DNA from: a virus
Lineage: Duplodnaviria; Heunggongvirae; Uroviricota; Caudoviricetes
IMG/VR virus record: IMGVR_UViG_2657245124_000006
Strand: one strand, 5' to 3'
Length of the DNA: 24,063 nucleotides
The notes beneath the pieces are model-generated. The model did no database searches. It was not told where the DNA came from and saw only the letters and a list, made by a program, of their open reading frames with translations. The position numbers were made by a program, and so were the translations under genes. Below, in pieces: positions 1 through 8,175 of the stretch (its first letter is position 1; each line of letters starts with the position of its first letter).

Positions 1-468
1 TTAATTTAATCGGCTACGATAAAAGTCTCTTGTTATGTTGCGATCGATGACTACTTCACAACGTGCTGAAGGTCTGTAACCCTCACGAGCCTTAATCCAT
101 GGTTCTTCTTTATGAGTCATATCTTCAAGTTGTGCGCCAGAAAAAGCACCGTAGACTTCAAGAACGCCATCAATATGAGCTGCGGTTGCGGCTGGAATGG
201 ATGAAAGATCAAACCCAGGAGTGCGATCTGCAATCGTTATGTCCGAATACAGTGATTTTGTAGAAGAGAACCGGTTATAAATCGCACGGCTTACTGGGCC
301 ATGAATCCAAGCTTGAAACTCCTCATCCACTAACTTTTTATCGAAAAAAGCTAGATACCAAGCATCTGCGTAATAAGCTAATTTTTGCAGCTTCAAATTA
401 GACATAGTTTCACCTGAAGCTAAGATTTTTGTGATGATGTAATCACATAATTGGTTAATATTTATCAT
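1..468 (-). CDS. Panacea-domain (DUF4065) protein, GepA/SocA-like putative antitoxin
   Basis: 155 aa, ATG at 466-468, AGAGGGA ribosome-binding site upstream. The segment 'LKLQKLAYYADAWYLAFFDKKLVDEEFQAWIHGPVSRAIYNRF' matches the DUF4065 signature as I recall it. Stop codon is at window positions 1-3. Confidence 0.7.
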   Translation of the reverse strand: MININQLCDYIITKILASGETMSNLKLQKLAYYADAWYLAFFDKKLVDEEFQAWIHGPVSRAIYNRFSSTKSLYSDITIADRTPGFDLSSIPAATAAHIDGVLEVYGAFSGAQLEDMTHKEEPWIKAREGYRPSARCEVVIDRNITRDFYRSRLN

Positions 469-633: not shown

Positions 634-1653
634 TTACGTAGTTACCATAGTTGCTAATGGATTAAAACGTAGCGCTGTTTCTAGGTGGTCAGGAGCCAGA
701 TGAGCATAGCGCATGGTCATTTTTATGTCGTGATGCCCAAGGATTTTCTGCAGAGCCAGGATGTTTCCGCCGGACATCATAAAGTGTGCTGCGAACGTAT
801 GACGCAGAACGTGTGTTAGCTGACCGCGTGGAAGCACAATAGAAGTCTTATCCATTACAGATAAAAACTGGAAGTAGCAGTCAGTGAAGAAATTGAAACC
901 GTCTAGGGCAATGATTTCCTCATACAGCTCTTTGCTAATCGGAATGCTTCGGTTCTTTTTGCCTTTGGTCCTGACGAATGTGATCCGGTATTTCGTAACC
1001 TGAGAACGGGTTAGGTTCACAGCTTCGCGCCAGCGTGCTCCGGTGCTCAGACAGATTTTAACGACAAGAGCGAGCAGGGGACTTTGGCGGTTGCAGTCGT
1101 ACAATAGCTCGGTAATTTGTTCATGCGTCAGCCAGGCCATCTCCTTTTCTGCGATGGTGAATTTTCGCATGTTCTCCAGTGGGTTCGGATACGACCATTC
1201 GCCCAGGCGGGATAGTTCGCTAAAAACACTACTTAGATAGCTTTGCTCCAGGTTAATGGTGACCGGGCTTGCTCCTTTCTTCCATTTCTCGCTGAAGTAG
1301 ATCTCGCCTGTCAGGCGTTTATCTCGATAGTGGGCAAACATTTTAGAGGTGAGATCAGTTGCAAGGGGATTGCCCAGAGCGTCAACCATCAGCAGCAATT
1401 TGTCATAGACATGCTGCCCAGCAGTCAGTGATTTACCATGTAGTTTGAACCATAGCTCAACCACGTCTTTTAGTGTTCGACGATCCACTGATTCACCTAG
1501 CCAGGGCTTTGCTTCGGTTTCTTCCATCGTGTGACGCTCAAAAGCCAGTGCTTCGCCTTTGGTGGCGAATTGTTTACGCACACGACGCCCACTACGTCCG
1601 GCGGGGTAACATTCGCAAAGCCATTTTCCTGTGGTGAGTTTTCGTACAGCCAT
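634..1653 (-). CDS. int: Tyrosine site-specific integrase, P2-type
   Basis: 339 aa from ATG at 1651-1653 ('MAVRKLTTGKWLCECYPAGRSGRRVRKQFATKGEALAFE'), GGAGGG ribosome-binding site 9 nt upstream. C-terminal 'LRHTFAAHF...GHHDIKMTMRYAHL' carries the R/H/R/Y catalytic residues. The ORF-track start at 1809 is probably an upstream over-extension. Confidence 0.9.
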   Translation of the reverse strand: MAVRKLTTGKWLCECYPAGRSGRRVRKQFATKGEALAFERHTMEETEAKPWLGESVDRRTLKDVVELWFKLHGKSLTAGQHVYDKLLLMVDALGNPLATDLTSKMFAHYRDKRLTGEIYFSEKWKKGASPVTINLEQSYLSSVFSELSRLGEWSYPNPLENMRKFTIAEKEMAWLTHEQITELLYDCNRQSPLLALVVKICLSTGARWREAVNLTRSQVTKYRITFVRTKGKKNRSIPISKELYEEIIALDGFNFFTDCYFQFLSVMDKTSIVLPRGQLTHVLRHTFAAHFMMSGGNILALQKILGHHDIKMTMRYAHLAPDHLETALRFNPLATMVTT

Positions 1654-1841
1654 AAAAAATGCCCTCCAATAGAGAGCATTTTTACTGTATGTATAACCAG
1701 TGTCAATATATGAAATCCTGCGACCATACATCTCACTGAAGCCATAATGAAGTAGGCTATTCTTTTTGCTATGTGAGCATGTAACTTTTGCGGTTAACCT
1801 GTGGCTCATTTTTATTTTAGGCGCAGATATAAAAGCAAAAG

Positions 1842-2033
1842 TTATCGTGAGTTTTTAGTACAGATTTTTTTGGATTTACTAATAGTTCCATCATTGCAAA
1901 CGAATTTGCCATCTGAGGTACAGTGAGAAACACCTCCCTTTTTCCCTGAGCAGGGATAATTTCTAGCATAGGTAGCTAGTGGGTTTAATAACAAAGAACA
2001 TGACAAAACCACAAAAAATACCTTACCAAGCAT
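1842..2033 (-). CDS. Small secreted cysteine-containing protein (63 aa), candidate lysogenic-conversion moron
   Basis: ATG at 2031-2033 with a strong GGGAGGAAATT ribosome-binding site. It starts 16 bp after the CI stop, same strand. N-terminal signal-peptide-like stretch '[23 protein letters not shown]', then a ~40-aa mature part with 4 Cys. AT-rich codons. Confidence 0.55.
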
Positions 2034-2048
2034 AATTTCCTCCCGGTA

Positions 2049-2618
2049 CTATTTAACATACTTGACTGTTAAACTTATAATTTTACCAATTATTTCAATG
2101 TCTTCTATCTTGCATTCGAAGGCTCTGTTTCCACCCTCGACGAAGATTCTTCCACCGGGTAAACGAGTAATGTCACGGATCGTTATTTCGCCATCAATAC
2201 TTATTACCCATTTACCATCACGTATATCATCAAATTCCTTATCACAAATAAATTCAGAATTATTATCTGTGATTACAAAAAGATTCTTGAATGCCGACGG
2301 TAGAAATTCTCTATCGAAAATATAAAAACCGTCTTCACACAAGGCCCCATCAGATAATACATATTTAGCAACTTCCATAGTATTTGTATTACCTGAAGTT
2401 TGCTTTGAACCATGCCCGGTTGTGAGCCAATTAAGCGAGGTGCCTGTTTCAAGGGCGCACTGGATTACCCATTCTGCTGGAAATGAGTCACGCATGTAGC
2501 GTGTGGCGAGTGTACTTTTAGAGATTCCTAAATGATCGCACAACGCCTGTCGAGTCTTGAATCCATAAGCTTCTACCATGCGCTCTATAGCGCCTCGTCC
2601 GCCTTTCTCCAAATTCAT
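2049..2618 (-). CDS. cI: Immunity repressor, phage 186 CI-like (HTH plus C-terminal domain)
   Basis: 189 aa from ATG at 2616-2618 (track start at 2624 is GTG). GGAG ribosome-binding site upstream. HTH segment 'TRQALCDHLGISKSTLATRYMRD'. Sits between int and the divergent apl/cII genes; size matches 186 CI (192 aa). Confidence 0.8.
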   Translation of the reverse strand: MNLEKGGRGAIERMVEAYGFKTRQALCDHLGISKSTLATRYMRDSFPAEWVIQCALETGTSLNWLTTGHGSKQTSGNTNTMEVAKYVLSDGALCEDGFYIFDREFLPSAFKNLFVITDNNSEFICDKEFDDIRDGKWVISIDGEITIRDITRLPGGRIFVEGGNRAFECKIEDIEIIGKIISLTVKYVK

Positions 2619-2642
2619 GGTCACTCCAAGTGAACTTTTATC

Positions 2643-2743: not shown

Positions 2744-2965
2744 ATGAGACCTAACATTTCAATCACTCTTACTACACCTCATGTGACTATTGAACGCTAT
2801 AGCGAGCTGACAGGGCTATCCATCGATACCATCAATGACATGTTGGCTGATGGACGCCTTATCCGTCACCGTCTGCGCAAAGATAAAAAACGCGAAAAAG
2901 TGATGATCAACATAGCAGCAATGACCGTTGATGCGCTTTCAGAATGCAATCTAAACCTTAATTAG
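2744..2965 (+). CDS. apl: Apl/Cox-like excisionase and switch regulator
   Basis: 73 aa, ATG at 2744, first gene of the rightward operon divergent from cI. Size and position match 186 Apl / P2 Cox. Sequence similarity not verified. Confidence 0.65.
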
Positions 2966-2997
2966 TTCGATTCTGAAATACATCAGAGGCATTGACC

Positions 2998-3507
2998 ATG
3001 TTTGATTACCAAGTTTCCAAACATCCACATTTTGATGAATCCTGTCGTGCATTCGCATTGCGCCACAACCTGGTGCAACTGGCAGAACGTGCTGGCATGA
3101 ATGTGCAGATTCTGCGGAACAAGTTGAACCCAGCTCAACCTCATTTATTAACCGCACCAGAAATCTGGCTGCTTACCGATCTGACTGAAGATTCAACGCT
3201 GGTAGATGGTTTTCTGGCTCAGATTCACTGCCTGCCATGCGTACCGATTAATGAGGTGGCAAAAGAGAAACTGCCACATTACGTCATGAGTGCAACCGCA
3301 GAGATCGGGCGTGTTGCTGCAGGTGCGGTATCTGGCGATGTAAAAACCAGTGCAGGTCGTCGTGATGCTATCAGCAGCATTAACTCTGTAACACGACTGA
3401 TGGCGTTGGCTGCTGTTTCATTGCAGGCCCGTTTACAGGCTAACCCTGCGATGGCGAGTGCAGTTGATACCGTGACTGGCCTCGGTGCTTCATTTGGTTT
3501 GCTGTGA
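2998..3507 (+). CDS. cII: CII-type lysogeny-establishment activator (phage 186 CII family)
   Basis: 169 aa from ATG at 2998 ('[24 protein letters not shown]...'). Track start at 2992 is TTG. Length equals 186 CII and the N-terminus matches my recollection of it. Confidence 0.8.
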
Positions 3508-8155: not shown

Positions 8156-8175
8156 TACTGTAAATATAAACAGTG
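8156..8175 (+). promoter_or_regulatory. LexA box (SOS operator)
   Basis: TACTGTAAATATAAACAGTG: CTG-N10-CAG with AT-rich centre, 17/20 match to TACTGTATATATATACAGTA. A TTTACA -35-like hexamer lies just upstream. It is 42 bp before the 8217 start. Confidence 0.65.

What the first reader, a model, noticed from the sequence alone, without database searches (positions are those of the whole stretch)
1842..2033. Small secreted Cys-containing peptide gene directly behind cI
A 63-aa ORF with a signal peptide and four cysteines starts 16 bp after the cI stop with a strong ribosome-binding site, so it would be expressed in the lysogen. P2 has no gene between C and int, as far as I recall. This is the classical position for a lysogenic-conversion or superinfection-exclusion factor.
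Basis: partly seen in the sequence, partly recalled or inferred. Interest (0 to 1): 0.55.

Follow-up and report, generated by a model that had tools for sequence, protein, structure and literature searches.

The report
Prophage YdcA-family periplasmic peptide gene
Directly behind the repressor gene of this 186-like E. coli prophage sits a real, strongly conserved gene for a 40-residue, disulfide-bonded, highly basic peptide exported to the periplasm; it belongs to the known but uncharacterised YdcA family and is cargo in a known hotspot, so it is only moderately surprising, though it gives testable clues to what YdcA proteins do.

Summary
Window 1842-2033 (minus strand) is a 63-codon ORF that starts 15 nt after the cI stop, behind a GGGAGG ribosome-binding site. 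It has a Sec signal peptide and four cysteines in the mature part (a fifth lies in the signal peptide).

It is a member of the YdcA family (NCBIfam NF007463, 114.6 bits against a cut-off of 93). RefSeq already annotates it. It occurs in 648 of 5,426 complete E. coli genomes. The mature peptide is under strong purifying selection (7 synonymous and 0 non-synonymous changes between two alleles).

Phages 186, SopEΦ and P2 have nothing at this position. Related phages carry other cargo there, including defence genes. YdcA-like genes also lie behind the repressor in Yersinia, Pasteurellaceae (unannotated in phages HP2 and S2) and β-proteobacterial P2-like prophages.

Two new clues emerged:
- The fold matches the lobes of Legionella Dis2, a protein that sits beneath the outer membrane.
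- The domain is fused to three unrelated secreted nuclease folds.

The function is untested. My best guess is an envelope-level exclusion factor that binds DNA or the outer membrane. It is a new member of a known kind, of moderate interest.

The parts
1842..2033 (-). YdcA-family precursor gene (63 codons plus stop)
   Evidence: ORF. NCBIfam NF007463 at 114.6 bits, above the cut-off of 93. PHROG 6000. Precomputed PF27300. RefSeq calls it 'YdcA family protein' WP_001513672.1.
1965..2033 (-). Sec (signal peptidase I) signal peptide, residues 1-23 ([23 protein letters not shown])
   Evidence: The -1 residue is A/G and the -3 residue is A/S/T/V in 33 of 33 homologues, and the leader is otherwise divergent. 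dN/dS in the leader is about 0.3-1, against about 0-0.03 in the mature part. The Cys is not conserved and there is no lipobox.
1845..1964 (-). Mature 40-aa peptide [40 protein letters not shown] (4 Cys, 9 K/R against 2 D/E, pI 9.7, 4.3 kDa)
   Evidence: Invariant residues are P27 C28 S29 K32 G33 G34 C38 F44 C46 G49 S52 S54 K55 C58. AF2 pLDDT is 85.6 for the domain. The best PDB match is Dis2.
2039..2044 (-). Shine-Dalgarno GGGAGG, 5 nt upstream of the ATG
   Evidence: Read from the sequence.
2049..2624 (-). 186-type cI repressor gene (RefSeq start corresponds to 2618), immediately upstream in the same operon
   Evidence: Pfam Phage_CI_repr 2.8e-33 and Phage_CI_C 2.7e-27. The stop is 15 nt before the peptide gene.
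1655..1683 (-). 13-bp hairpin plus U-run between the peptide gene and int. Its 3' arm is the int Shine-Dalgarno (GGAGGG). It is a candidate terminator or translational mask that would make the peptide gene the last expressed gene of the lysogenic transcript.
   Evidence: Fold of 1654-1845(-): -51.8 kcal/mol, z -3.85. A pairing hairpin of different sequence sits at the same place in relatives. Its function is inferred.
1678..1706 (-). Promoter-like TTGACA-17-AAAAAT whose spacer is a LexA-box-like CTG-N10-CAG, upstream of int
   Evidence: Promoter scan. The box is conserved in front of int behind different cargo. The same pattern occurs only once more in the window, at 8157-8174, against 0.04 expected.
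634..1653 (-). Tyrosine integrase gene, downstream of the peptide gene
   Evidence: Pfam Int_N and Phage_integrase. RefSeq annotation.
2744..3507 (+). Divergent early lytic genes apl/cox-like (2744-2965) and cII (2998-3507). These define the 186-type switch region.
   Evidence: PHROG 575 and PHROG 101, and Pfam Phage_CP76.

Best explanation
The ORF is a genuine accessory ('moron') gene inserted at the cI-int junction of a 186-like prophage.

Shown:
- It encodes a YdcA-family precursor.
- It lies 15 nt behind cI with its own strong ribosome-binding site and no separate promoter-like site.
- The mature peptide is under strong purifying selection.
- The junction is a cargo hotspot that holds defence genes in relatives.

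Inferred from sequence:
- The precursor is exported by Sec and cut after A23, giving a 40-residue, +7 peptide held by two disulfides in the periplasm.
- It is made whenever cI is made, that is, in the lysogen.

Inferred mechanism (weakest step): the peptide is a free copy of a small extracytoplasmic binding module. The same module forms the two lobes of Legionella Dis2, which sits under the outer membrane on lipoproteins DotC, DotD and DotK. It is also fused to the N-terminus of three unrelated secreted nuclease folds. I propose that the free peptide binds a polyanionic or outer-membrane-proximal ligand (DNA, or the phosphate-rich inner face or lipoprotein layer of the outer membrane). By doing so it would interfere with foreign DNA entering through the envelope, so it would act as a superinfection-exclusion type factor that protects the lysogen.
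For: Gene reality:
- Family hits.
- Sd/Nd in the mature part is 7/0 and 12/2 between E. coli alleles.
- The gene is intact in all 82 near-identical loci examined. It is annotated as a CDS in every row of a spread sample of the 648 E. coli genomes that carry it, one of which (H185) matches in two places.
- It is retained in a degraded prophage.

Export:
- Conserved A-x-A cleavage site on a divergent hydrophobic leader.
- K-12 YdcA is described as having a signal sequence and being predicted periplasmic (bioRxiv 10.1101/2024.02.12.579971).

Operon:
- A 15-nt gap to cI, with no minus-strand promoter or terminator hit between them.
- In phage HP2 the homologous ORF overlaps the cI stop (TAATG).

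Hotspot and location:
- 186, SopEΦ and P2 are empty at this position.
- PD-Lambda-1 sits in 813R9, and a PDC-S20 KAP NTPase sits right after the YdcA-like gene in L174.
- Rousset 2022 describes a cI-int hotspot, and K139 Glo is annotated 'periplasmic protein; involved in phage exclusion' at the same position.

Recurrence in a sample of 80 species:
- 7 homologues lie directly behind a 186-type CI. One more (Buttiauxella) lies one gene further away.
- 7 lie zero to three genes behind an S24-type repressor in β-proteobacterial P2-like prophages.
- Neighbouring cargo is often exported or membrane protein.

Binding-module idea:
- Dis2 is the top PDB hit in three searches. The best has TM 0.63-0.70, rmsd 1.7-1.8 Å, 42% identity and probability 0.90-0.94, and the next hit has probability 0.05.
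- Fusions to SNase, PLDc_2 and Endonuclease_NS.
- Mean net charge is +3.7 over 183 distinct domains.
Against: - No experiment or expression data for this gene was available.
- There is no hit in PADLOC and no homology to Glo.
- No isolated enterobacterial phage in the phage collection carries it.
- Most family members in the species sample (about 60 of 80) are in chromosomal, non-phage contexts. These include conserved core-like loci: K-12 ydcA next to cybB, and Atlantibacter/Citrobacter next to DUF2946/PepSY_TM. This fits a housekeeping or stress role better than phage defence.
- Nuclease fusions could equally mean envelope anchoring rather than DNA binding.
- Dis2 contacts proteins, not DNA (PMC12716638).
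Confidence: 0.4

Rival explanations
1. It is a host-fitness (lysogenic-conversion) factor rather than an anti-phage one. Like chromosomal YdcA, the periplasmic peptide would help the envelope cope with stress such as stationary phase or weak organic acids, and the prophage simply carries an extra, constitutively expressed copy.
For: - Deleting K-12/W ydcA makes E. coli W sensitive to 300 mM 3-hydroxypropionate, and the gene is reported as acid-induced via YdcI (PMC7642389).
- An RpoS-type constitutive promoter was mapped in the rydC/ydcA intergenic region (PMC5493296).
- Most family members sit in stable chromosomal loci.
- The gene is retained in a decayed prophage.
Against: - The 3-HP phenotype is indirect and was overridden by a yieP deletion.
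- The hypothesis does not explain the repeated placement in repressor operons of P2-like phages next to defence cargo.
- It does not explain the fusions to nucleases.
Confidence: 0.3
2. It is a Dis2-like adaptor or decoy for outer-membrane machines. The peptide would bind OmpA-like, VirB7-like or other outer-membrane lipoproteins and so modulate or block a type IV secretion or conjugation system, a secretin, or Tol-Pal-type complexes. The effect would be reduced conjugative DNA entry or colicin and filamentous-phage import.
For: - The Dis2 lobes have the same fold and 42% identity.
- Dis2 contacts DotK (OmpA-like), DotC and the DotD N-terminus near the outer membrane (PMC8486379, PMC12716638).
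- Family members occur on small mobilisable Acinetobacter and Psychrobacter plasmids.
- UniRef names one cluster 'Conjugal transfer protein'.
Against: - Loss of Dis2 barely affects the T4SS.
- No T4SS genes accompany the family in the 80 sampled loci.
- The UniRef name is unsupported automatic annotation.
- The Dis2 relationship itself is only probable.
Confidence: 0.15
3. It is an exported cationic toxin, bacteriocin-like peptide or signalling peptide that acts on neighbouring cells.
For: It is small and cationic, with two disulfides and a Sec leader. Superficially these features resemble defensin-like peptides.
Against: - There is no immunity, processing or export partner gene, and the neighbours vary.
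- A Sec signal alone delivers a protein only to the periplasm in E. coli.
- The domain occurs as an N-terminal module of larger enzymes and inside a T4SS complex.
Confidence: 0.05
4. It is not a functional gene, but a chance ORF in a cI-int spacer.
For: It is short (63 codons), and many genome records label it only 'hypothetical protein'.
Against: - Curated family hit above the cut-off.
- 448 family clusters.
- 7 synonymous against 0 non-synonymous changes in the mature part.
- Strong Shine-Dalgarno sequence.
- Invariant Cys pattern.
Confidence: 0.02

Closest known systems
YdcA family (E. coli K-12 YdcA/b1419; NCBIfam NF007463 / PRK10040; Pfam PF27300)
   Same: Same architecture: a Sec leader followed by one roughly 35-residue domain, PCSGxKGGxxxC...FxCxDGxxSxSKxxC, with 4 invariant Cys. 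It scores above the curated cut-off. RefSeq already uses this name for the identical protein.
   Different: K-12 ydcA is a chromosomal gene next to rydC/cybB with its own (RpoS-type) promoter. This copy is prophage cargo driven from the repressor operon. The K-12 locus matches only weakly: 78% over 45% of the query, annotated 'periplasmic protein' (H186). The family's function is unknown.
Legionella pneumophila Dis2 (Lpg0823), a component of the Dot/Icm T4SS outer-membrane cap (PDB 7MUC/7MUD chain AN)
   Same: Each Dis2 lobe has the same small disulfide-pinned fold and motif (CS-KMGG..C....VCNxG..S). It is the top PDB hit, with TM 0.63-0.70, rmsd 1.7-1.8 Å and 42% identity. The profile E-value is 1.1e-5 with the leader and 0.038 without it. 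It is periplasmic and lies close to the outer membrane.
   Different: Dis2 has two lobes and five disulfides and is a stoichiometric part of a T4SS. The published work calls it Legionella-specific with no structural relatives. The phage protein is a single free lobe with no T4SS nearby.
Glo of Vibrio phage K139 (periplasmic exclusion protein encoded between cI and int)
   Same: It is in the same phage family (Peduoviridae), at the same operon position (cI-orf2-glo-int), and has the same cellular compartment. The GenBank record annotates it as 'periplasmic protein; involved in phage exclusion'. From my memory of Nesper et al. 1999, J Bacteriol 181:2902, Glo was shown to take part in exclusion; that paper was not readable here.
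   Different: There is no sequence relationship: hhalign aligns only the signal peptides, with probability 2%. Glo is 137 aa and lacks the Cys motif.
Defence and accessory hotspots of P2-like prophages (old/tin, Z/fun, cI-int in K139-like phages)
   Same: It is variable cargo at a fixed position between conserved genes. Relatives carry PD-Lambda-1 and a PDC-S20 KAP NTPase at the same junction. The hotspot concept is described in PMC9122126 and PMC13586616.
   Different: The YdcA-like gene is not a recognised defence gene (no PADLOC hit). Unlike typical cytoplasmic defence systems, it acts outside the cytoplasm.

Membership tests
YdcA family (NF007463 / PF27300) | Scores above the curated family cut-off | tested here: met
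   NF007463 scores 114.6 bits against a cut-off of 93, E 1.3e-33, covering profile positions 1-58 of 58. PF27300 is precomputed for the identical protein.
YdcA family (NF007463 / PF27300) | N-terminal Sec signal peptide with a signal peptidase I site | tested here: met
   K4, a hydrophobic core and T-Y-A before the predicted cut. The -1/-3 rule holds in 33 of 33 homologues. No dedicated predictor was run.
YdcA family (NF007463 / PF27300) | Four invariant cysteines and the PCSGxKGG / FxCxDG / SxSK motifs | tested here: met
   All invariant columns are present in the window protein.
Dis2 (Lpg0823)-like T4SS outer-membrane-cap proteins | Fold of the disulfide-pinned lobe | tested here: met
   [not shown]
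Dis2 (Lpg0823)-like T4SS outer-membrane-cap proteins | Two tandem lobes | tested here: not met
   The window protein has a single domain. Two- and three-lobe relatives do exist elsewhere (P0080, P0081).
Dis2 (Lpg0823)-like T4SS outer-membrane-cap proteins | Association with a Dot/Icm-type secretion system | tested here: not met
   The window is a P2/186-like prophage. No T4SS families appear among the neighbours of 80 homologues.
K139 Glo-type periplasmic exclusion proteins | Sequence homology to Glo | tested here: not met
   hhalign probability is 2%, and only the leaders align.
K139 Glo-type periplasmic exclusion proteins | Encoded between cI and int and exported to the periplasm | tested here: met
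   Position. Export is inferred from the leader.
K139 Glo-type periplasmic exclusion proteins | Excludes superinfecting phage | not testable with these tools
   This needs plating or DNA-entry assays.
Exclusion lipoproteins (T5 Llp, phi80 Cor, lambda Bor type) | Lipobox with a conserved +1 Cys | tested here: not met
   VLSC at residues 9-12 lies too close to the N-terminus, and the Cys is absent from many homologues (P0019, P0031, P0036 and others).
Known or candidate anti-phage defence proteins (PADLOC-DB 2.0) | Match to any model | tested here: not met
   0 families at E<=0.01.

The most novel reading that the evidence does not exclude
The YdcA/Dis2 lobe would be a previously unrecognised extracytoplasmic mini-domain that binds DNA, or another phosphate-rich polyanion at the inner face of the outer membrane. 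Free, repressor-co-expressed copies in P2-like prophages of γ- and β-proteobacteria would then be a new class of periplasmic blockers of DNA entry, acting against superinfecting phage DNA and perhaps transforming or conjugative DNA. The hosts include the naturally competent Haemophilus, Moraxella and Acinetobacter. If true, this would also assign a function to the E. coli y-gene ydcA and to Legionella Dis2.
Probability: 0.15. Interest if true: 0.7.

Novelty: new member of a known kind. Interest (0 to 1): 0.42.

Why it matters
YdcA is one of the remaining E. coli K-12 proteins with no function, and the prophage copy sits in about 12% of complete E. coli genomes.

This analysis gives the family three concrete handles:
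- It is repeatedly recruited into the lysogeny operon of P2-like phages, at a junction that otherwise holds defence genes.
- It probably shares a fold with the lobes of Legionella Dis2, which has been described as Legionella-specific and without structural relatives.
- It is fused to three unrelated secreted nucleases.

Together these make a simple, cheap hypothesis testable: that it is a periplasmic polyanion- or outer-membrane-binding peptide that affects DNA entry. If the answer is instead a stress-tolerance role, the gene is an ordinary lysogenic-conversion moron.

Tried and rejected
- **Local Pfam.** It gave no real hit for the ORF (only GULLO2-like, E 0.076). The family model PF27300 is newer than the local copy.
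- **Conserved downstream partner gene.** I tested this after seeing tightly linked genes in HP2, Mcat17, an Acinetobacter phage-plasmid and small plasmids. The partners are unrelated (tRNA_anti-like, DUF4236, or no family), so I rejected the idea.
- **Lipoprotein reading of VLSC.** Rejected, because the Cys is not conserved and lies too early.
- **Homology to K139 Glo.** Rejected.
- **PADLOC.** No hit.
- **'ydcA' of F-like plasmids and the gonococcal genetic island.** This is a different gene, a putative methylase in the plasmid leading region, so those papers are irrelevant.
- **Metal binding.** I considered this reading (Cys/His, with DUF2946/PepSY_TM neighbours in Atlantibacter and Citrobacter). 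I set it aside because the Dis2 cysteines are all in disulfides.
- **Nuclease inhibitor.** Rejected, because the fusions involve three unrelated nuclease folds.
- **Searches that yielded nothing.**
  - The afdb50 library was unavailable.
  - Nesper et al. 1999 (PMC93736) is not held.
  - Rfam found nothing meaningful in 1500-2800.
- **Effect of the signal peptide on the Dis2 hit.** I re-ran the PDB profile search without the leader. This weakened the Dis2 E-value from 1.1e-5 to 0.038, so the earlier value was partly inflated by the leader.

Full report
**What is there.** The finding's coordinates hold a minus-strand ORF, 2033 to 1842, of 63 codons: [63 protein letters not shown]. Upstream on the same strand is a 186-type repressor at 2049-2624, with Pfam Phage_CI_repr and Phage_CI_C. 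Downstream is a tyrosine integrase at 634-1653. Divergent from cI are an apl/cox-like gene and a cII (CP76) gene. The cI stop (TAG, 2051-2049) is followed by 15 bases containing GGGAGG (2044-2039), and the ATG lies 5 nt after that. P2 indeed has no gene between C and int. In 186 and SopEΦ, cI and int abut or overlap.

**It is a real gene of a named family.**
- The protein matches NCBIfam NF007463 (PRK10040) at 114.6 bits against a cut-off of 93, and PHROG 6000, which has no known function.
- The identical protein carries the precomputed Pfam family PF27300, and RefSeq names it 'YdcA family protein' or 'hypothetical protein'.
- A profile search over 1.84 billion representatives found 448 family clusters.
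- In an alignment of 33 homologues the leader diverges freely, but the cleavage motif is kept: the -1 residue is A in 32 and G in 1, and the -3 residue is always A, S, T or V. From P27 onward the sequence is nearly fixed, with four invariant cysteines.
- Between E. coli alleles the mature part shows 7 synonymous and 0 non-synonymous changes (window vs L173), and 12 against 2 (window vs L174). The leader shows dN/dS of about 0.3-0.4.
- The gene is in 648 of 5,426 complete E. coli genomes. It is annotated as a CDS in every row of a spread sample, one of which (H185) matches in two places. It is intact in all 82 near-identical loci examined, 80 IMG/VR viral contigs and 2 genome contigs.
- It survives in a prophage that has lost most late genes.
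- The predicted mature peptide has 40 residues, 9 K/R against 2 D/E, pI 9.7 and a mass of 4.3 kDa.

**Position and expression.**
- Fifteen bases leave no room for a terminator, and the scan found no promoter-like site for the ORF on the minus strand. Co-transcription with cI from the lysogenic promoter is therefore the natural reading. This is inferred; no expression data were available.
- The 188-nt spacer to int is structured (z -3.85).
- It ends in a 13-bp hairpin plus a U-run (1655-1683) whose 3' arm is the int Shine-Dalgarno sequence.
- Just upstream is a TTGACA-17-AAAAAT promoter-like site whose spacer is a LexA-box-like CTG-N10-CAG.
- This int leader is conserved in relatives regardless of what cargo precedes it, and the hairpins there differ in sequence but still pair.
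- The only other copy of the box in the window lies in front of the DinI-like/Tum-like region.
- This suggests the lysogenic transcript effectively ends with the peptide gene, while int has its own SOS-controlled promoter. That is an inference noted in passing.

**The junction is a cargo hotspot.**
- Escherichia phage vB_EcoM-813R9 carries a 558-aa protein there that matches PD-Lambda-1.
- Klebsiella phage 4LV2017 carries an unrelated 349-aa gene.
- E. coli JA0072 has cI, then the YdcA-like gene, then a KAP NTPase (PDC-S20), then int.
- Rousset et al. 2022 describe a defence hotspot between cI and int in K139-like Vibrio phages (PMC9122126). [quoted passage not shown]
- K139 itself encodes Glo there, annotated 'periplasmic protein; involved in phage exclusion'. 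Glo is a positional and compartmental analogue only, because it is not homologous.

**Recurrence across phages.**
- A tblastn search of 50,697 phage records found no enterobacterial phage isolate with the gene. It did find homologues in Haemophilus HP2 and S2, Moraxella Mcat phages, Acinetobacter phages and Pseudomonas Y12.
- In HP2 the homologue is an unannotated 60-codon ORF that overlaps the cI stop (TAATG). It is followed by a secreted OB-fold protein and then int.
- In a one-genome-per-species sample of 80 loci, the commonest immediate upstream neighbour is a 186-type CI. This holds for 7 of 79 loci, from Escherichia, Yersinia and Pasteurellaceae, where cI has diverged to 32-38% identity. 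Buttiauxella has one gene in between.
- Seven β-proteobacterial loci (Comamonas, Iodobacter, Deefgea, Aquabacterium and a Hydrogenophilales MAG) have the gene zero to three genes behind an HTH_3 plus Peptidase_S24 repressor. In five of these a P2 gpD homologue is convergent downstream.
- Adjacent cargo in these operons is unique to each phage and often has a signal peptide, lipobox or membrane segments.
- The remaining roughly 60 loci are heterogeneous chromosomal contexts. They include K-12 ydcA beside cybB, and an Atlantibacter/Citrobacter locus beside DUF2946/PepSY_TM. The family also occurs on 4-5-kb mobilisable plasmids of Acinetobacter and Psychrobacter.

**Clues to molecular activity.**
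- *Structure.* AlphaFold2 models are confident for the mature domain, with pLDDT 85.6 for the 35-residue core.
  - The best PDB match, with either model, is chain AN of 7MUC/7MUD. This is Legionella Dis2 (Lpg0823), part of the Dot/Icm outer-membrane cap.
  - With the mature model the match has TM 0.63-0.70, rmsd 1.7-1.8 Å over 33-36 columns, 42% identity and probability 0.90-0.94. All other hits have probability of at most 0.12.
  - Dis2 is described as two similar lobes pinned by five disulfides, lying close to the outer membrane and touching DotK, DotC and DotD. It is reported to have no structural relatives and to be Legionella-specific, and its loss has only subtle effects (PMC8486379, PMC12716638).
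- *Domain fusions.* Among 20 long family members scanned, the only confident Pfam domains found C-terminal to the YdcA domain are nucleases of three unrelated folds: SNase (P0115, L160), PLDc_2 (P0184) and Endonuclease_NS (P0194, P0202, P0215). The domain usually starts right after the leader and carries a mean net charge of +3.7. What three different secreted nucleases share is their substrate (nucleic acid) or their location (the envelope). The module is therefore most simply a binding or anchoring unit for DNA or for the phosphate-rich inner face of the outer membrane.

**What is known of the family.**
- K-12 YdcA is a 57-aa protein of unknown function with a predicted signal sequence (bioRxiv 10.1101/2024.02.12.579971).
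- An RpoS-type promoter maps to the rydC/ydcA intergenic region (PMC5493296).
- A ydcA deletion made E. coli W sensitive to 3-hydroxypropionate, and the gene is cited as acid-induced through YdcI (PMC7642389).
- The 'ydcA' of F-like plasmids and of the gonococcal island is a different gene.

**Verdict.** This is lysogen-expressed envelope cargo in a classical and now documented hotspot, but exclusion is an inference from location, analogy and the binding-module clues. A stress or fitness role like that hinted for chromosomal ydcA is a serious rival.

The gene is a new member of a known but uncharacterised family, not a new kind of element. Three points go beyond the existing annotation:
- The recurrent link between a phage repressor and a YdcA-like gene, including ORFs missed in the HP2 and S2 records.
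- The probable relationship to Dis2.
- The fusions to secreted nucleases.

Together they turn 'function unknown' into a short list of cheap experiments.

Noticed in passing
window 1655-1706 (minus strand), between the peptide gene and int: A promoter-like TTGACA-17-AAAAAT has a spacer that is a LexA-box-like CTGGTTATACATACAG. It is followed by a 13-bp hairpin plus a U-run, whose 3' arm is the int Shine-Dalgarno sequence. This int leader is conserved in relatives behind different cargo, and the hairpins there differ in sequence but still pair. It suggests an SOS-controlled int promoter, with read-through from the lysogenic transcript terminated or translationally masked.
   Followed up: partly
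window 8157-8174: This is the only other LexA-box-like palindrome in the window (ACTGTTTATATTTACAGT). It lies just after the replication endonuclease gene and in front of a small ORF and a DinI-like gene in relatives. That is the expected position of a Tum-type SOS-induced antirepressor promoter, as in phage 186.
   Followed up: no
window 1-468 (minus strand): A Panacea/SocA-like antitoxin-domain gene (Pfam SocA_Panacea 2e-19) lies between int and the prophage end. In E. coli relatives it is followed by a 251-aa hypothetical protein next to host rcdA. In another strain the pair is absent and int abuts rcdA. This makes it variable cargo at the int-att spot, possibly a toxin-antitoxin or defence pair.
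   Followed up: partly
[not shown]
   Followed up: yes
L174 1142-2473 and L004 3091-4767 (relatives of the window's cI-int junction): In E. coli JA0072 a KAP-family NTPase matching PADLOC PDC-S20 sits directly after the YdcA-like gene. In phage vB_EcoM-813R9 a PD-Lambda-1 homologue occupies the junction, where it is annotated 'chromosome segregation ATPase'.
   Followed up: partly
P0057, P0058, P0060, P0062, P0105 (β-proteobacterial family members): These roughly 105-aa members carry a second conserved Cys-rich C-terminal motif, CPCSSGxLCTGPRGGKYC..G.K.Y. It has no Pfam match and was not analysed further.
   Followed up: no
L176 (E. coli PE15, prophage between rcdA and ybjL): This is a decayed copy of the same prophage. 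Portal, tail and tape-measure genes are truncated pseudogenes, yet the cI, YdcA-like and int module is intact and 99.9% identical to the window.
   Followed up: no
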